This document shows positions 19,224 to 29,098 of a stretch of 40,630 bases of DNA, one piece after another. Position numbers and translations under genes: made by a program. The notes beneath the pieces are model-generated. The model searched no databases and was not told the DNA's origin. It saw only the letters and a list, made by a program, of their open reading frames with translations. The first letter of the stretch is position 1, and each line of letters starts with the position of its first letter. The stretch is from a virus: the IMG/VR virus record IMGVR_UViG_3300045988_007834; one strand, written 5' to 3'.

Positions 19224-19251
19224 GGGCACAGGGTTTATTTCCCCTGTGCCC
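19224..19251. terminator. Bidirectional hairpin terminator between convergent genes
   Basis: Perfect 10-bp stem GGGCACAGGG / CCCTGTGCCC with T-runs on both strands. It overlaps the repressor stop region. Confidence 0.6.
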
Positions 19252-19606
19252 ATTTTTCTGCGATTTCGGCAAGTATCTCCCATTCTTTAACGCCGAGCTG
19301 GCTAACGATTGATATAAAACGTTTCCTTGCTGCGTCATCCGGGTCGTTCATAACTTTCCCGAGGAACTCTGCGATTTCCTGATTTTGCGTCAACTCCTTC
19401 ATCATTTCACCCTCTCCGGTGCGAAGCCATGTTTCGTTGACATTAAACTCTTTACAGATAAGCCGTAAAAATGGCTCATTCGGTTCTGTTTTTGCACCTT
19501 CAAGGTTTGTGATTACACCCCGCGTTGTTCCAAGCCGTTCTGCAAAATCAGTCTGAGATAATCCGGTTTTTTTTCGGATGGCTTTTATGCGTTCATTGAT
19601 GGTCAT
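19235..19606 (-). CDS. CI-like repressor (XRE-family HTH, no peptidase domain)
   Basis: The N-terminal MTINERIKAIRKKTGLSQTDFAERLGTTRGVITNLE is a classic HTH_3. It is transcribed divergently from the early lytic operon. Confidence 0.75.
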   Translation of the reverse strand: MTINERIKAIRKKTGLSQTDFAERLGTTRGVITNLEGAKTEPNEPFLRLICKEFNVNETWLRTGEGEMMKELTQNQEIAEFLGKVMNDPDDAARKRFISIVSQLGVKEWEILAEIAEKWAQGK

Positions 19607-19624
19607 TTAGGACACCTCCTAAAA

Positions 19625-19735
19625 CTATTATACACAATATAAATGTATTGTCAATACAAAAATATTTATTCAAAAGCGCAAAAATGTATTGACAAAACAA
19701 AAATAAGGGTCTATAATGTAGTCACAATACATCAA
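19625..19735. promoter_or_regulatory. Genetic switch: divergent consensus promoters with three operator-like 15-mers
   Basis: Leftward promoter: TTGACA (19654..19649), 16 nt, TATAAT (19632..19627). Rightward promoter: TTGACA (19689..19694), 17 nt, TATAAT (19712..19717). Operators: the perfect palindrome TGTATTGTCAATACA at 19644..19658, a 13/15 copy at 19685..19699 and a 12/15 copy at 19717..19731. Confidence 0.7.
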
Positions 19736-19773
19736 GCGACATAAAAATGTCGTATGGAAGCGAGGTGAATCAA

Positions 19774-19914
19774 ATGCCCGAGGAATCCAAGCAGGCTCTA
19801 AAAACCGTCGGTGTTGACGTTGACAAGCTCGACGCCGAGCAGATTCAGAGATTGAGCGACATTGCGTATGGGATGCTTCTTGTAAAAGAAGCGCAGCCGA
19901 AGAAGGAGGAATAA
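19774..19914 (+). CDS. First early-operon ORF (46 aa, hypothetical; Cro position)
   Basis: ATG follows GAGGTG, downstream of the rightward promoter. Counted as 47 codons. Confidence 0.4.
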   Translation: MPEESKQALKTVGVDVDKLDAEQIQRLSDIAYGMLLVKEAQPKKEE

Positions 19915-19916
19915 GG

Positions 19917-20132
19917 ATGGAACGTATGACGCTGGAAGAACTAAAGCAATCGGACGCGCCGATCATTACGCCGGAGATGGCTTCGTGGTTTTTGGGGTGT
20001 AATCCCCACGAGCTGCGGCTTCGGGCGCGGCAGAACCCCGCCGGACTTGGATTCCCGGTGTGCTGCATCGGGAGCCGCGTAAAAATACCGAGAAAGCCGT
20101 TTCTGGCGTTTCTCGGGGAAAAGGAGGAATGA
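19917..20132 (+). CDS. HTH_17 / excisionase-family DNA-binding protein (Xis or Cro candidate)
   Basis: LKQSDAPIITPEMASWFLGCNPHELRLRARQ...GSRVKIPRKPFLAFL resembles excisionase-type winged HTH proteins. RBS is GAAGGAGGA. Confidence 0.5.
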   Translation: MERMTLEELKQSDAPIITPEMASWFLGCNPHELRLRARQNPAGLGFPVCCIGSRVKIPRKPFLAFLGEKEE

Positions 20133-20135
20133 AAG

Positions 20136-20279
20136 ATGATCTCAAAGAGAGAATGGTACGCCGCGCTGCGGCGGATGCTCAAGCGGCCGACGGCGTACTT
20201 TCCGCAAACACTGCGCCTGATGCGGGCGCTGAGCATCCCAGTCGAGGAAATGCGGGCGGCAATCAGCTACCCGTGGTAA
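20136..20279 (+). CDS. Small hypothetical protein (47 aa) sharing its first 13 aa with CDS 21296..21475
   Basis: ATG lies 8 nt after AGGAGG and reads MISKREWYAALRRMLKRP.... The alternative long frame (ORF 20060) is Ala/Gly-rich and looks off-frame. Confidence 0.45.
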   Translation: MISKREWYAALRRMLKRPTAYFPQTLRLMRALSIPVEEMRAAISYPW

Positions 20280-20302
20280 AGAATAAATGGAGGAACGAAG
20301 GA

Positions 20303-20887
20303 ATGAAAGTCAAAATTACATTTTTGGAGCCGGTGCTCGGGACGTGGCCGAGCAACGAGAACGTCGCCCGAGACTTCATCGCATCGAAGTCGCCGGACGC
20401 AAGCACGATTGAGGACGAGATTGCGGCGCTCGGTGTGGACGCGGTGGCCGATAAGGGAATGACCGTTTTCCCCCGCGTAGACGGCACCCCTGTCTTTTAC
20501 GACTACCAGATCAAGGGGTTTTTCAAGGACGCCTGCGGGATGCTGACGCGCGTGAAAACCACCAAGAGTAGCGCCCTCAAAGCGTACAAGAAGATCATCG
20601 ACGGCCTGATTTTCGTGGAACCCCGGCACATCCCTATTGCGGTCAACGGTGAAATCGGTGACTGCCAGCGCCCCCTTCGGGCGCAGACGGCACAGGGCGA
20701 ACGTGTCAGCCTTGCGAACTCCGAGGAAATCCCGGCAGGCAGCACGATCGAGTTTGAAATTCTCCTGTTTGACGAAAAGGCACACCGCGACGCCGTCCTC
20801 GAATGGCTTGACTATGGACGGATGCGCGGTATCGGCCAGTGGCGCAACTCCGGCAAGGGGCGGTTCCGGTATGACGTGATCGACTGA
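20303..20887 (+). CDS. Hypothetical early protein (194 aa) with a RAMP/Cas6-like C-terminal glycine-rich loop
   Basis: ATG follows GGAGGAACGAAGGA. It starts with a strand-like N-terminus MKVKITFLEPVLG and ends GIGQWRNSGKGRFRYDVID. Confidence 0.6.
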   Translation: MKVKITFLEPVLGTWPSNENVARDFIASKSPDASTIEDEIAALGVDAVADKGMTVFPRVDGTPVFYDYQIKGFFKDACGMLTRVKTTKSSALKAYKKIIDGLIFVEPRHIPIAVNGEIGDCQRPLRAQTAQGERVSLANSEEIPAGSTIEFEILLFDEKAHRDAVLEWLDYGRMRGIGQWRNSGKGRFRYDVID

Positions 20888-21295
20888 TAGCAAGGGCAGT
20901 GATGGCCATGAATAGCTTTGCGGCGGCGTGGTAGAGCTGTGTTCGGCAGATGGACAGCGATGGCATGGAAATGCTGTGAACCGCGATGCCACGGCATGGC
21001 ACAGCAACGGAGAGCGAAGCGTTGAATCGCAACGGCAAGGATATGAATCGTAGAGCAAGGGAATTGCATATCGGCGCGTTAGTTAGCGGAGAAACGCCAT
21101 GCTTGGCGACGGCAAAGGAGAGCAATGCCACGAATGGCAATGGAAACGATGAGCGCCGCACGGATTCGCTATGGCACAGTAAGGTGTTGAACCGCAGGGG
21201 CATAGGAACGCAACGAACCGCTTCACAATGCCAAGCAAAGGAATGGCTAAGCAGCGCTAAGCAATGCGAAGAATACACAAAAAGGAGGAAGGAAT
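20888..21295 (+). repeat. 408-bp non-coding tract rich in ATGG / TGGCA / TGCCA words and short inverted repeats
   Basis: No credible ORF. I counted 18 ATG triplets (9 as ATGG). It holds TGCCA-N5-TGGCA (20987..21001), TGCCA-N4-TGGCA (21126..21139), CGCCA-N4-TGGCG (21095..21108) and the palindrome ATGGCCAT (20902..20909). There is also a roughly 20-nt tandem pair, GAATCGCAACGGCAAGG and GAATCGTAGAGCAAGG. Confidence 0.6.
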
Positions 21296-21475
21296 ATGAT
21301 CTCAAAGAGAGAATGGTACGCCGCATTGCGGCGGACGATGAAGCGCGTGGCCCTGATTCTGGGGGGCGTGTTCATGATGGCGGCGTTCTTTTACTGGCTT
21401 GTGTGGGGCTTTCGCCTCGACGCGGCTGTGATGGCGACAATGTCTGTCGCGCTGGTGGGGTACGGGATGGCATGA
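21296..21475 (+). CDS. Small membrane protein (59 aa)
   Basis: ATG follows AGGAGGAAGGAAT. MISKREWYAALRRTMKRVALILGGVFMMAAFFYWLVWGF... has two hydrophobic segments. Confidence 0.5.
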   Translation: MISKREWYAALRRTMKRVALILGGVFMMAAFFYWLVWGFRLDAAVMATMSVALVGYGMA

Positions 21476-21588
21476 TGGGATGGATCTGTTGTCTCGGCTC
21501 CCGGCTCAAGGCGGCGTGGAAAGCGCTGGAGGAAGCCGCAGAGAGGCAGAGAAACTACTGGGGCGCGGAGGATGACAAATGTTTGTGA
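21472..21588 (+). CDS. Small hypothetical protein (38 aa)
   Basis: ATGA overlap with the upstream stop. Reads MMGWICCLGSRLKAAWKALEEAAERQ.... Confidence 0.3.
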   Translation: MMGWICCLGSRLKAAWKALEEAAERQRNYWGAEDDKCL

Positions 21589-21815
21589 AGCTATGCGAGG
21601 GATGCCCACGCGAAGAGATCTGCGAGGAGCGCATTTGTAAGTCCAGCTGGCAGCGGGAATGGCTGTGCAGCTGGGACAACATCCGCCGTTCAGGGGCAAA
21701 GAAAAAGGCTGCCCGCGTGGACAGACGCGAACAGCCAGAGGAAGACAAACCGATCAGCCATCGGGAATATGTCTTTAGTCACATTTTAACAGCTGGATGG
21801 AGGGATGTCAAGTGA
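21579..21815 (+). CDS. Cys-rich hypothetical protein
   Basis: RBS GGAGGA. Reads MFVKLCEGCPREEICEERIC.... Confidence 0.45.
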   Translation: MFVKLCEGCPREEICEERICKSSWQREWLCSWDNIRRSGAKKKAARVDRREQPEEDKPISHREYVFSHILTAGWRDVK

Positions 21816-22048
21816 CGCAGTGTGAAAAGGTGCTCCGGCATCTCCGGACGTTTGGTTCGATCACGCCAATGGAGGCGATGCAGGAATACGGCATCATGCG
21901 GCTTGGGGCCCGGTGCTGGGATCTGAGGAACAGCGGTATCCCGGTCGTGAGTGAGATCGTGGCCGGAAAGAACCGGTTCGGCGAGACGACGCACTATGCG
22001 AAATACAGATTGGAGGACGGCGACGGCAATGTTTCCGAGAGAACTTGA
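21812..22048 (+). CDS. Winged-helix DNA-binding protein (phage wHTH family)
   Basis: GTG 21812 follows GGAGGG. CEKVLRHLRTFGSITPMEAMQEYGIMRLGARCWDLRNSG...YAKYRL is a recurrent phage wHTH pattern. Confidence 0.55.
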   Translation: MTQCEKVLRHLRTFGSITPMEAMQEYGIMRLGARCWDLRNSGIPVVSEIVAGKNRFGETTHYAKYRLEDGDGNVSERT

Positions 22049-28346: not shown

Positions 28347-29098
28347 CGCATCTGAGTTTATTTTCGGGAATCGGCGGACTTGATCTTGCTGCGGAATGGG
28401 CAGGATTTGCAACCGTTGGGCAATGCGAATTTGCAGATTACCCAACAAAAGTGCTGGAAAAGCACTGGCCGGATGTGCCACGCTGGCGTGACATCCGGAC
28501 TTTGACGAAGGAGAGTTTTTATGAGCGGACAGGCCTACGAACAGTTGACGTTATTTCCGGCGGATTCCCATGCCAGCCCTTCTCCGTGGCTGGAAAGCAA
28601 AAGGGCAAAGGGGATGATCGATACCTCTGGCCGGAGATGCTCCGAGTTATCACCGAGCTGCGCCCACGTTGCGTTGTCGGTGAAAACGTTTCTGGACTTG
28701 TTCGAATTGCGCTTGCGGGAATCCTTTCCGAACTGCAAGGCGTCGGCTACGAAGCAAGGGCTTACAGTTCTGCGGCTTGGGATGTCGGCGGACTGCACAA
28801 GGGAGAGAGAATCTTTATCGTGGCCGCGGCCAACGACGGGCGCGCCGCTGTGCGGCGGAACACACAACTTCCGGCAGATGGTGGCACTGAGAGACGCGGG
28901 GGTCGTCACGGAGGAGGAGCGGAAAAACCTGACCTGTGGAAGCGGTGGGAAGTCGAACCCCGCCCTTATGGAGTGGCTCATGGGATTCCCAATCGGGTGG
29001 ACAAGCTTAAATGCCTCGGAAACGCGGTAGTGCCGCAGCAGGCATATCCGATTTTCAAGGCATTGGCGGAAGAATTGCAGAGGGAGGATTTGTTATGA
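28343..29098 (+). CDS. DNA (cytosine-5) methyltransferase (small phage type)
   Basis: LFSGIGG (motif I), GGFPCQPFS (IV), ENV (VI), GERIFIV (VIII) and LGNAVVPQ (X). Confidence 0.85.
   Translation: MTHLSLFSGIGGLDLAAEWAGFATVGQCEFADYPTKVLEKHWPDVPRWRDIRTLTKESFYERTGLRTVDVISGGFPCQPFSVAGKQKGKGDDRYLWPEMLRVITELRPRCVVGENVSGLVRIALAGILSELQGVGYEARAYSSAAWDVGGLHKGERIFIVAAANDGRAAVRRNTQLPADGGTERRGGRHGGGAEKPDLWKRWEVEPRPYGVAHGIPNRVDKLKCLGNAVVPQQAYPIFKALAEELQREDLL
28521..29030 (+). CDS. Embedded out-of-frame ORF (169 aa) inside the C5-MTase gene, with its own RBS and family-like motifs
   Basis: AAGGAG (28508..28513) lies 7 nt before ATG 28521. Motifs are QLTLFPADSHASPSP, TSGRRCSEL, WPRPTTGAP and NPALMEWLMGFPIGWT. 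Confidence 0.4.
   Translation: MSGQAYEQLTLFPADSHASPSPWLESKRAKGMIDTSGRRCSELSPSCAHVALSVKTFLDLFELRLRESFPNCKASATKQGLTVLRLGMSADCTRERESLSWPRPTTGAPLCGGTHNFRQMVALRDAGVVTEEERKNLTCGSGGKSNPALMEWLMGFPIGWTSLNASETR

What the first reader, a model, noticed from the sequence alone, without database searches (positions are those of the whole stretch)
20888..21295. 408-bp non-coding tract with strong ATGG / TGGCA / TGCCA word enrichment and several GCCA...TGGC inverted repeats
No frame gives a protein-like ORF. The 200-aa and 206-aa ORFs in the track are low-complexity and overlap better genes.
- I counted 18 ATG triplets: 9 as ATGG, 6 as ATGC, 3 as ATGA and none as ATGT. That is about three times the roughly 6 expected.
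- Almost every GG is followed by C or A.
- Inverted repeats are TGCCA-N5-TGGCA (20987..21001), CGCCA-N4-TGGCG (21095..21108), TGCCA-N4-TGGCA (21126..21139), TGCCA-N10-TGGC (21229..21247) and the palindrome ATGGCCAT (20902..20909).
- Repeated longer words are ATGGCACAG(C/T)AA(C)GG at 20996 and 21171, G(T)TGAACCGC at 20977 and 21186, and a tandem pair of about 20 nt at 21021..21060.

Candidates are a structured or decoy ncRNA, an iteron-type origin, or a binding array for a phage DNA- or RNA-binding protein. About a dozen GGA motifs also recall protein-sponge RNAs.
Basis: seen in the sequence. Interest (0 to 1): 0.65.

Follow-up and report, generated by a model that had tools for sequence, protein, structure and literature searches.

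The report
Phage VIPR guide-RNA repeat array
The odd 408-base non-coding tract is about 79 five-base repeats with a conserved G, next to a small Cas7-like gene, which fits the phage RNA-guided "VIPR" system first described in 2026 preprints, so it is a new member of a known kind.

Summary
The tract (20888-21295) is a degenerate tandem array of about 79 units of 5 nt, occasionally 6 nt. One G per unit is almost invariant, it is usually followed by C or A, and the other three positions vary. The periodicity of about 5.15 nt stays in phase for at least 130 nt and occurs nowhere else in the window. The ATG/ATGG/TGGCA enrichment follows from this pattern. The inverted repeats are no more frequent than chance, and no stable fold is predicted.

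The upstream 194-aa gene (20303-20887) encodes a single-domain RAMP protein. Its closest folds are type VII Cas7 and Csm3, and it has a glycine-rich loop GIGQWRNSGKGRF. It aligns weakly but end to end with the characterised Vipr protein of phage SUSP1. Of 80 homologous genome loci, 78 carry the same periodic tract on the gene's strand.

Gene and tract form a 1160-bp cassette, and a 95-97% identical phage has the empty site. Array content turns over far faster than the gene, and changes fall on the variable positions.

This matches VIPR: Vipr plus pentanucleotide-repeat vrRNAs that guide DNA binding. I found no targets, no 3' tail and no intact accessory gene.

The parts
20303..20887 (+). vipr gene: 194-aa single-RRM RAMP (Cas7-like) protein. 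The glycine-rich loop G176-I-G-Q-W-R-N-S-G-K-G-R-F188 lies near the C-terminus.
   Evidence: - The ATG at 20303 agrees with the N-termini of homologues.
- No Pfam, PADLOC or PDB sequence hit.
- AlphaFold2 model: pLDDT 79.8, pTM 0.74.
- Best Foldseek PDB matches are type VII Cas7 (9j9e, 8yhd; E=2e-5, TM 0.56) and type III-A Csm3 (6xn3_F, 6ifl_F).
- BFVD homologue A0A8S5R426 (84% identity) is named 'Cas system-associated RAMP superfamily protein'.
- hhalign to SUSP1 Vipr: probability 63-79%, E=2e-5 to 7e-5, over 175-186 collinear columns.
20888..21280 (+). Putative vrRNA array: about 79 tandem units of 5 nt (64 steps) or 6 nt (13 steps). In the published register the consensus is Y-N-N-N-G. The anchor G is present in 94% of units and is followed by C or A.
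   Evidence: - GC autocorrelation peaks at 5, 10, 15/16, 20/21, 26, 31, 36 and so on up to 129 nt.
- Best spectral period is 5.15 nt with power 3.3, unique in the window.
- Unit parses.
- Substitution rate in alignable homologous tracts is 2.4% at the G, 8.4% at Y and 12-15% at the three N positions.
- Among phages with an identical Vipr protein, all 15 substitutions inside pentamers fall on the N positions.
21042..21087 (+). 46-nt stretch inside the array where the periodicity is weakest (contains GGAATTGCATATCGGCGCG). It is absent from two arrays that sit beside an identical Vipr gene.
   Evidence: - Periodicity dips about 120-200 nt after the stop codon.
- Alignment A4 shows L261 and L265 lack these 46 nt. 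L261 also lacks one exact 31-nt module.
20119..20185 (+). Left copy of the 67-nt direct repeat, forming the left cassette junction. It holds the ribosome-binding site and the first 16 codons of the 59-aa membrane-protein gene.
   Evidence: - repeat finder family D2: 82% identity, spacing 1160 nt.
- The relative MT835551.1 has a single copy and no cassette.
21279..21345 (+). Right copy of the 67-nt direct repeat, forming the right cassette junction. It is the start of the intact 59-aa gene (21296-21475).
20136..20279 (+). 47-aa chimeric ORF. It joins 16 codons of the membrane-protein gene to the last 34 codons of a 79-aa helix-turn-helix (HTH) gene. That HTH gene is intact directly upstream of vipr in other phages.
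   Evidence: - Alignment A3.
- The 79-aa gene is intact in L004 and in 6 of 8 contigs that carry an identical Vipr.
- It gives only sub-threshold HTH matches in Pfam.
19689..19717 (+). Consensus early promoter (TTGACA, 17-nt spacer, TATAAT). It is presumed to drive the cro-like gene, the HTH gene, vipr and the array.
   Evidence: The match is 12 of 12. No strong terminator-like site lies on the + strand between the promoter and the array. Transcription itself is inferred, not shown.

Best explanation
The tract is the guide-RNA (vrRNA) array of a VIPR (Viral Interference Programmable Repeat) system. The 194-aa gene upstream is its Vipr protein.

**Shown here**
- The protein is a small single-domain RAMP with a G-loop.
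- The adjacent same-strand tract is a long array of 5-nt repeats. One G per repeat is under strong constraint and three positions are hypervariable.
- Gene and tract are coupled across hundreds of phages and prophages of gut Clostridia.
- The pair moves as a cassette.
- Array content and length change much faster than the gene.

**Inferred from the SUSP1 and Pseudomonas fulva VIPR work** (bioRxiv 10.64898/2026.04.26.720920 and 10.64898/2026.04.26.720927)
- The tract is transcribed, here probably from the early lytic promoter.
- Vipr protomers bind one repeat each and form a helical filament.
- The conserved G (and Y) bases are flipped into protein pockets.
- The variable bases are presented for gapped pairing with double-stranded DNA of a competing phage or prophage, which silences its transcription.

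**This clade differs in the repeat code.** The G-loop residue that reads the first G in SUSP1 (D177) is Q here. Matching that, the first G of GGY is not conserved, which gives a YNNNG-type repeat.
For: **Protein**
- RAMP/Cas7-like fold.
- G-loop GIGQWRNSGKGRF aligns with SUSP1 GVGDWRPRFGRF. W178 and R179 are conserved and D177 is replaced by Q (with residue roles from 10.64898/2026.04.26.720927).
- The hhalign match to SUSP1 Vipr is full length and collinear, with E=1.6e-5 to 7e-5.

**Tract**
- Periodicity of 5.15 nt, unique in the window.
- 72 of 73 distinct downstream tracts in viral loci peak at 5.07-5.19 nt.
- 78 of 80 genome loci carry an adjacent same-strand tract.
- The anchor G changes 5-6 times less often than the N positions.
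- Within the identical-Vipr lineage, 15 of 15 pentamer substitutions fall on N positions.

**Turnover**
- The gene is 92% identical to L004 at the DNA level. Only about 75 of 391 tract bases align.
- Arrays beside identical Vipr genes are 331, 362 or 408 nt long. One difference is an exact 31-nt module.

**Context and literature**
- The cassette has an empty site in MT835551.1.
- The window has no CRISPR array and no other cas gene.
- The VIPR paper describes phage-encoded ~20 kDa RAMPs flanked by long intergenic regions with YNNGG repeats. It lists the alternative consensus forms NNNGG, YNNNG and NNNNG.
Against: - There is no expression or binding data for this locus.
- Sequence similarity to a characterised Vipr is weak (hhalign probability 63-79%).
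- I found no conserved structured 3' tail and no discrete vrRNAs of 9-16 repeats. The array is continuous, with a GCAANG hexamer every 31-36 nt, and folding is at chance level.
- There is no intact accessory (vap) gene. The upstream HTH gene is truncated here.
- No natural target was found. A 0.54-Mb local set of related phages gave no excess over shuffled guides for skips 0-2 with 2 or 3 variable bases. Exact matching, which also covered the period-5 spacings, found only other repeat tracts.
- Two IMG/VR pattern scans gave chance-level hits or none.
- The VIPR type could not be assigned because the supplementary figures and tables are not held.
Confidence: 0.85

Rival explanations
1. RNA decoy or anti-CRISPR module. 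The phage Cas7-like protein plus repeat RNA forms a filament that poisons or sequesters host class 1 CRISPR components or another RNA-binding defence. It would not guide DNA recognition.
For: - The protein's nearest solved folds are Cas7 and Csm3 backbone subunits.
- It sits in the early lytic operon, where anti-defence genes often lie.
- No DNA targets were found.
- Type IV-B Cas7 filaments are known to assemble on non-CRISPR RNA (10.1101/2020.07.31.231399, abstract seen).
Against: - A decoy would not need hypervariable positions inside a conserved scaffold. It would also not need rapid array turnover beside an identical protein. Those are hallmarks of a specificity-encoding guide.
- The characterised relatives act by RNA-guided DNA binding.
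Confidence: 0.06
2. DNA-level element. The tract is an array of protein-binding sites on double-stranded DNA, such as an iteron origin, a centromere-like site or a nucleoid-protein loading site. The 5.15-bp spacing would reflect half a helical turn.
For: - The period of 5.15 nt is close to half of 10.4 bp.
- Arrays of short repeats are typical of plasmid centromeres and origins (general knowledge).
- The tract lies in the early/replication region of the phage.
Against: - The cassette is dispensable, since a 95-97% identical phage lacks it.
- The period ranges from 5.07 to 5.19 between loci. It arises from discrete 5- and 6-nt steps, not from a fixed helical constant.
- The G-rich strand is always the coding strand of the RAMP gene, whether the tract lies upstream or downstream.
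- The partner protein has an RNA-binding RAMP fold.
- No ParA/ParM or initiator gene is part of the cassette.
Confidence: 0.04
3. The tract has no function of its own. It is a decayed gene or a low-complexity spacer whose word bias reflects mutation or slippage.
For: - It has no ORF and no predicted fold.
- TRF finds no tandem repeat.
- Module duplication by slippage does occur.
Against: - Substitution rates are position-specific with a 5-nt phase.
- The same scaffold is kept in 72 of 73 viral tracts and 78 of 80 genome loci, even though the sequences do not align.
- No homologue carries an intact ORF across the region.
Confidence: 0.03

Closest known systems
VIPR systems (Vipr + vrRNA), type II of Escherichia phage SUSP1 and the Pseudomonas fulva prophage (bioRxiv 10.64898/2026.04.26.720920; structures in 10.64898/2026.04.26.720927)
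   Same: - A phage-encoded RAMP of about 195 aa with a G-x-G-x-W-R...G-R-F G-loop.
- No CRISPR array or other cas genes.
- A long flanking intergenic tract on the gene's strand, made of tandem pentanucleotide repeats with conserved G and hypervariable N positions.
- Location in a temperate phage regulatory region.
- Fast turnover of array content.
   Different: - The repeat is YNNNG-like. Only the second G is strongly conserved, and Y is C 56% or A 28%. SUSP1 has strict GGY-NN.
- The G-loop has Q where SUSP1 has D177, the residue that reads the first G.
- The array is continuous (about 79 units, 390 nt). A GCAANG hexamer recurs every 31-36 nt. SUSP1 instead has vrRNAs of about 100 nt, each with 9-16 repeats and a ~40-nt structured tail.
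- There is no intact vap gene.
- Targets are unknown.
Class 1 CRISPR backbone subunits (Cas7, Csm3, Cmr4; type VII Cas7)
   Same: These are the closest solved folds (Foldseek E=2e-5, TM 0.55-0.58). They share the RRM core, the G-rich loop and a thumb-like insertion. They also polymerise along an RNA with a fixed nucleotide step.
   Different: - The window has no CRISPR array, no Cas5, Cas6, Cas10 or Cas11, and no adaptation genes.
- The step is 5 nt with a sequence-specific G. Cas7 uses a 6-nt, sequence-independent step.
- The gene is carried by the phage.
TRAP and the trp leader RNA of Bacillus subtilis (general knowledge)
   Same: A homo-oligomeric protein reads a short conserved motif repeated every 5-6 nt, with non-conserved spacers, on a single-stranded RNA that has no stable fold.
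   Different: The fold is unrelated. TRAP reads 11 (G/U)AG triplets around a closed ring and regulates attenuation. Its spacers carry no targeting information.
Type III toxin-antitoxin systems (ToxIN and relatives; general knowledge)
   Same: A small protein gene sits next to a tandem-repeat non-coding RNA, often on phages or plasmids.
   Different: ToxI repeats are 36 nt long, nearly identical and lie upstream of an endoribonuclease toxin. Here the repeats are 5 nt with variable content, and the protein is a RAMP with no toxin family match.

Membership tests
VIPR (Vipr + vrRNA) | Vipr protein: small (~20 kDa) single-RRM RAMP with a glycine-rich loop and a thumb | tested here: met
   - 194 aa. 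AlphaFold2 pLDDT 79.8.
- Foldseek top hits are all Cas7, Csm3 or other RAMP chains.
- The G-loop GIGQWRNSGKGRF is invariant across 31 homologues.
VIPR (Vipr + vrRNA) | Sequence relationship to an experimentally characterised Vipr (SUSP1, KT454805.2 28474-29061, minus strand) | tested here: inconclusive
   - hhalign probability 78.9% with E=1.6e-5, 78.1% with E=1.8e-5, and 63.2% with E=7e-5 for profile against profile.
- The alignment is full length and collinear, and the G-loop motif is shared.
- This is suggestive but below the usual 90-95% probability. The thumb region is not reliably aligned.
VIPR (Vipr + vrRNA) | Non-CRISPR context in a virus or provirus: no CRISPR array and no other cas genes | tested here: met
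   - No Rfam CRISPR repeat or other RNA family anywhere in the window.
- No tandem or CRISPR-like array.
- Neighbours are phage early genes: cI-like, cro-like, wHTH, Sak and YqaJ-like.
- 589 confirmed hits in IMG/VR.
VIPR (Vipr + vrRNA) | Flanking intergenic tract of tandem pentanucleotide repeats with conserved GGY (or the related NNNGG, YNNNG or NNNNG) and hypervariable N positions | tested here: met
   - 78 anchors, 94% of them G. Steps are 64 of 5 nt and 13 of 6 nt.
- Position weights: G 93%, then C 56% or A 28%, then three variable positions.
- Substitution rates are 2.4%, 8.4%, 12%, 14% and 15% along the unit.
- This fits the YNNNG variant named in the paper's methods.
VIPR (Vipr + vrRNA) | Gene and repeat tract co-occur and are co-oriented across the family | tested here: met
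   - 72 of 73 distinct viral downstream tracts peak at 5.07-5.19 nt.
- In 80 genome loci (51-85% identity), 67 have the tract downstream, 11 have it upstream only and 2 have none. One of those two is cut off just after the gene.
VIPR (Vipr + vrRNA) | Discrete vrRNAs (9-16 repeats) each ending in a conserved structured 3' tail (type II architecture) | tested here: not met
   - No repeated tail was found and no fold is better than shuffles.
- The array is continuous, with GCAANG hexamers every 31-36 nt.
- The paper reports other architectures, including staggered arrays without separate tails. This therefore excludes type II-like organisation, not VIPR membership.
VIPR (Vipr + vrRNA) | Associated vap accessory gene | tested here: inconclusive
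   - No conserved partner gene across 82 loci.
- A 79-80-aa HTH gene precedes vipr in some loci, but it is truncated in the window.
- The paper says loci 'typically' have a vap.
VIPR (Vipr + vrRNA) | vrRNA is expressed, processed and co-purifies with Vipr | not testable with these tools
   This needs small-RNA sequencing and a pull-down. All I have is a consensus promoter upstream and no terminator-like site before the array.
VIPR (Vipr + vrRNA) | Variable bases match DNA of competing mobile elements under the 1-nt-skip rule | tested here: inconclusive
   - In a 0.54-Mb local set, real and shuffled guides gave the same best-match distributions.
- Exact matching found hits only at the 5-nt period, that is, other repeat tracts.
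- The IMG/VR scan of an 8-unit pattern gave 96 scattered hits, consistent with chance. A 10-unit pattern gave none.
- The search space was small, and the rule for YNNNG repeats is unknown.
CRISPR-Cas class 1 (type III/VII Cas7) | CRISPR array of repeats of about 28-37 nt with spacers, plus Cas5, Cas10, Cas11 or other effector genes | tested here: not met
   No such array or genes in the 40.6-kb window.
CsrB/RsmZ-type protein-sponge RNA | Multiple GGA motifs presented in hairpin loops | tested here: not met
   GGA occurs 14 times against 13.8 expected. Hairpins are at chance level. No Rfam match.
Iteron-type replication origin | Directly repeated sites of about 17-22 bp for an initiator, an AT-rich region, and an essential role in replication | tested here: not met
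   - There are no long iterons.
- The tract is 54-57% G+C.
- The cassette is absent from a near-identical phage.
- Replication itself was not tested.

The most novel reading that the evidence does not exclude
This very large gut-Clostridia clade may use a repeat code different from the published GGY/NN, 1-nt-skip rule.
- It would have three variable bases per repeat, because the G1 pocket is relaxed by a D-to-Q change in the G-loop.
- The array would be built from 31- or 36-nt modules. Each module is 5-6 pentamers plus one GCAANG hexamer.
- The module length matches the six-protomer turn of the Vipr filament.
- The array could then be read as stacked turns or as very short guides. It might recognise a different kind of target, with another skip rule, RNA, or host genes.
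Probability: 0.25. Interest if true: 0.7.

Novelty: new member of a known kind. Interest (0 to 1): 0.5.

Why it matters
VIPR was described in 2026 preprints as a minimal RNA-guided DNA-recognition system. It needs one ~20 kDa protein and one repeat RNA, and it is proposed to be older than CRISPR.

- **Scale.** This locus places a very large, unannotated clade of gut Clostridia phage proteins in that system. The clade has at least 1,910 clusters at 50% identity and at least 7,993 at 90% identity.
- **Dynamics.** The cassette is captured together with its empty site. Arrays differ between phages that have identical proteins, which is natural material for studying how such arrays gain and lose guides.
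- **Code.** The relaxed repeat (YNNNG with a Q in the G-loop) and the 31/36-nt punctuation are concrete, testable leads on how the repeat code varies.
- **Annotation.** A simple 5-nt G-periodicity scan finds these arrays. TRF, Rfam and folding all miss them.

Tried and rejected
- **Rfam.** The gathering threshold on the whole window and the E-value mode on 19600-21700 found no family and no hammerhead.
- **tRNA/tmRNA.** None.
- **Structured RNA.** Minimum free energy is no better than shuffles on either strand. Hairpins are not enriched. Rejected.
- **TRF.** It reports nothing in the tract, because the repeats are too degenerate.
- **Family libraries.** Pfam, PHROGs, PADLOC and a PDB sequence search on the 194-aa protein gave nothing usable.
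- **Coding or decayed gene.** No homologue has an ORF across the tract, and the substitution phase is 5 nt, not 3.
- **Type III toxin-antitoxin, CsrB-like sponge, iteron origin.** Considered and rejected; see the membership rows.
- **Helical-repeat idea (5.15 = 10.3/2).** Rejected. The period varies from 5.07 to 5.19 and comes from discrete 5- and 6-nt steps.
- **Target prediction.** I tried exact and mismatch-tolerant gapped matching of guides from 81 arrays. The database was 0.54 Mb of related phage DNA. The exact search covered skips 0-3 for two variable bases and 0-2 for three. The mismatch-tolerant search covered skips 0-2 and 0-1. There was no excess over shuffled guides.
- **IMG/VR pattern scans.** Two scans were uninformative.
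- **VIPR type.** It could not be assigned, because the paper's supplementary files are not held.
- **Stronger homology.** A broader profile (A5) and a SUSP1-side profile (A6) did not raise the hhalign probability.
Full report
**1. The observation**

The region 20888-21295 lies between a 194-aa ORF and a 59-aa ORF (21296-21475) on the + strand. The 194-aa ORF has its true start at the ATG at 20303 and ends at 20887.

- ATG occurs 18 times: ATGG 9, ATGC 6, ATGA 3, ATGT 0.
- TGGCA occurs 4 times and TGCCA 3 times.
- Of 36 GG, 30 are followed by C or A.

The listed inverted repeats and the palindrome lie at the stated coordinates. The tract is purine-rich (G 135, A 127, C 84, T 62).

Against mononucleotide shuffles the words are strongly enriched. 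Dinucleotide shuffles absorb part of that:
- ATG is expected 14.0 times (p=0.03).
- ATGC is not significant.
- ATGG, ATGGCA, TGCCA and AACCGC remain significant.
- GGA is not enriched.

The hairpins are not above chance. I counted 5, against 3.0 +/- 2.1 in dinucleotide shuffles. Shuffling only the order of the repeat units gives 4.7 +/- 2.8. Neither strand folds better than its shuffles, with z-scores of +0.39 and -0.65. Rfam, tRNA and TRF searches find nothing.

**2. The hidden regularity**

Distances between GC dinucleotides in the tract are sharply periodic. The peaks fall at 5, 10, 15/16, 20/21, 26, 31, 36, 41 and so on up to 129 nt, with almost nothing in between. The adjacent coding sequence shows no such pattern.

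The power spectrum has a single dominant peak at 5.15 nt (power 3.3; the next peak is 0.5). In 300-nt windows along the whole 40.6-kb window the power at this period is 2.0-2.5 only over 20851-21001. The median elsewhere is 0.046 and the 95th percentile is 0.20.

I parsed the tract with a rule that rewards only a G at each anchor. This gives 78 anchors, 94% of them G, separated by 64 steps of 5 nt and 13 steps of 6 nt.

Pooled over 63 arrays, the 5-nt unit reads as follows:
- G at 93%.
- Then C at 56% or A at 28%.
- Then three variable positions.

The 6-nt steps have their own consensus, GCAANG, followed by the next anchor G. They recur after 5 or 6 pentamers, which gives 31- and 36-nt modules.

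ATG-G, TGGCA and 'GG followed by C or A' are simply what N-N-G-C/A-N units look like.

**3. The neighbouring protein**

The 194-aa protein has no Pfam, PHROG, PADLOC or PDB sequence match. It is nevertheless very common:
- At least 7,993 clusters at 90% identity.
- 1,910 clusters at 50% identity with E<=1e-3.

Its C-terminus carries an invariant G-x-G-x5-G-x-G motif, GIGQWRNSGKGRF. An AlphaFold2 model (pLDDT 79.8, pTM 0.74) matches only RAMP proteins in the PDB. The best hits are type VII Cas7 (9j9e, 8yhd; E=2e-5, TM 0.56) and type III-A Csm3. A BFVD homologue with 84% identity is already named 'Cas system-associated RAMP superfamily protein'.

**4. Gene and tract belong together**

- In the 80 viral loci, the gene is followed by 200-700 nt or more of ORF-poor, purine-rich DNA with the same words.
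- Of 73 distinct downstream tracts, 72 have their best period at 5.07-5.19 nt.
- I also examined 80 genome loci of 51-85% protein identity. They are mostly Oscillospiraceae, Faecalibacterium and other Clostridia, with some Coriobacteriia.
- Of these, 67 have the periodic tract directly downstream, 11 have it only directly upstream and 2 have none. One of those two is cut off just after the gene. The tract is always on the gene's strand.

The tracts do not align between loci. The closest IMG/VR relative (L004) has a gene 92% identical at the DNA level, but only about 75 of 391 tract bases align.

Where tracts do align, the substitution rate is 2.4% at the anchor G, 8.4% at the next base and 12-15% at the three variable positions. 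These are pair counts, not independent events.

Eight contigs encode an identical protein. Their tracts are 331, 362 or 408 nt long. Two of them differ by exactly one 31-nt module. All 15 substitutions inside pentamers fall on the three variable positions. If substitutions were spread evenly, the chance of that would be 0.6^15, about 5e-4.

**5. A mobile cassette**

A 67-nt direct repeat (20119-20185 and 21279-21345; 82% identical, 1160 nt apart) brackets the gene and the tract. Phage MT835551.1 is 95-97% identical on both sides. It has one copy of the repeat and nothing between, so it is an empty site.

The left junction is a chimeric 47-aa ORF (20136-20279). It joins the first 16 codons of the 59-aa gene to the last 34 codons of a 79-aa helix-turn-helix (HTH) gene. 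That HTH gene is intact just upstream of the RAMP gene in L004 and in 6 of 8 contigs with the identical protein.

I infer an unequal crossover at a short homology (ATG-N-T/G-N-AAGCG). It would have imported the 3' end of the HTH gene, the RAMP gene and the array.

The cassette lies about 600 nt downstream of a perfect consensus early promoter (19689-19717). No strong terminator-like site lies between them, so I infer early lytic expression.

**6. Comparison with what is known**

A full-text search found two 2026 bioRxiv preprints from one laboratory.

The first is 10.64898/2026.04.26.720920. It describes VIPR systems as follows:
- A phage-encoded 'ancestral RAMP' protein of about 20 kDa, named Vipr, found outside CRISPR loci.
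- Long flanking intergenic regions that encode vrRNAs made of 9-16 YNNGG pentanucleotide repeats plus a structured 3' tail.
- The conserved GGY is held by the protein.
- The NN dinucleotides pair with double-stranded DNA, skipping one target base per repeat.
- Natural targets are competing phages and satellites.
- There are seven types. Alternative repeat consensus forms are NNNGG, YNNNG and NNNNG.
- Array architectures include staggered and ribozyme-interspersed arrays.

The second is 10.64898/2026.04.26.720927. It shows one protomer per repeat in a right-handed filament with six subunits per turn. G1 is read by H17 and D177, G2 by R138 and W178, and Y3 by a pocket that includes R179.

I retrieved SUSP1 (KT454805.2). 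Its vipr gene is at 28474-29061 on the minus strand. The residue numbering matches the paper, and GGTNN arrays flank it on the same strand.

hhalign of my alignments against SUSP1 Vipr, or against a profile of its homologues, gives a full-length collinear match. E is 1.6e-5 to 7e-5 and probability 63-79%. That is suggestive, not conclusive.

The G-loops align as GVGDWRPRFGRF (SUSP1) against GIGQWRNSGKGRF (window). The W and R that hold G2 and Y3 are conserved. The D that reads G1 is an invariant Q in this clade. In this clade the position equivalent to G1 is not conserved. This is a two-point correlation and therefore only an inference, but it is mechanistically coherent.

**7. What does not fit, or is unknown**

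- There is no repeated structured tail. The array is continuous, so the type II architecture does not apply.
- The GCAANG hexamers every 31-36 nt could be vrRNA boundaries or processing sites, nucleation sites carrying a full GGY, or a once-per-turn adjustment of the six-protomer helix. I could not decide between these. I also could not view the paper's figure on staggered arrays.
- No conserved accessory gene exists across loci. The one candidate, the 79-aa HTH gene, is truncated here.
- I found no targets. Gapped matching of guides from 81 arrays against 0.54 Mb of related phage DNA gave the same best-match distribution as shuffled guides. That held for every tested skip and for 2 or 3 read bases.
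- Two IMG/VR scans gave 96 scattered hits, consistent with chance, and 0 hits.
- The database was small and the rule for this repeat type is unknown, so this result is inconclusive rather than negative.

**8. Verdict**

The finding is real and more regular than described. It is best explained as the vrRNA array of a VIPR system, with the 194-aa gene as its Vipr protein (confidence about 0.85).

The downstream mechanism is RNA-guided, gapped recognition of a competitor's DNA, leading to repression. It is inferred from characterised relatives and untested here.

Because the kind was published in 2026, this is a new member of a known kind. The clade-specific features worth following are the YNNNG repeat with Q in the G-loop, the 31/36-nt modules, the cassette with its empty site, and the array variants beside identical proteins.

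Noticed in passing
window 19627-19737: Immunity switch. Two divergent promoters each match the consensus 12 of 12: + strand 19689-19717 and - strand 19654-19627. They overlap three 24-nt operator-like repeats (19641-19737). The switch sits between a cI-like repressor gene (19235-19606, minus strand) and a cro-like ORF (19747-19914, plus strand).
   Followed up: partly
L001 (MT835551.1) 1865-1931 versus window 20119-21345: A 95-97% identical phage has a single copy of the 67-nt repeat and lacks the 1160-bp cassette. It is a natural empty site.
   Followed up: yes
window 20136-20279: A 47-aa chimeric ORF made by the insertion. It joins the 5' end of the 59-aa membrane-protein gene to the 3' end of a 79-aa HTH gene. 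That HTH gene is intact upstream of vipr in L004, L261, L263-L265, L267 and L268, and is a possible accessory (vap-like) gene.
   Followed up: partly
L261 and L265 versus window 21004-21105: Arrays beside an identical Vipr protein differ in three ways. One exact 31-nt module is duplicated in L265 and single in L261. A 46-nt stretch is present only in the window-type array. About 18 nt next to it are replaced.
   Followed up: yes
L070 and L082, about 20-630 nt after the vipr stop: An extra ORF of about 203 aa sits between vipr and the periodic tract. By eye it looks like an HNH/AP2-type homing endonuclease. The tract then starts only after it.
   Followed up: no
L054, L063-L065, L068-L069 (IMG/VR, mostly ~100-kb contigs) and L196: Much longer periodic tracts. 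They run at least 1.18 kb, which was the limit of my extraction, and in L196 the signal reaches about 2.3 kb past the stop codon.
   Followed up: no
L200, L201, L205, L210, L218, L223, L233, L241, L252, L255, L259: In these genome loci the periodic tract lies only upstream of vipr, on the same strand. Twelve further loci have tracts on both sides.
   Followed up: partly
window 21296-21475, 21579-21815 and 21797-22048: Directly after the cassette come a 59-aa predicted membrane protein, a 78-aa Cys-rich ORF and a winged-helix protein (Pfam HTH_39, E=2e-15). All three are also present in the empty-site phage, so they are not part of the cassette.
   Followed up: partly
BFVD A0A8S5R426 (Siphoviridae sp. 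ctcMb1): A public entry 84% identical to the 194-aa protein is already labelled 'Cas system-associated RAMP superfamily protein'. The RAMP nature was therefore noted by an annotator before VIPR was described.
   Followed up: no
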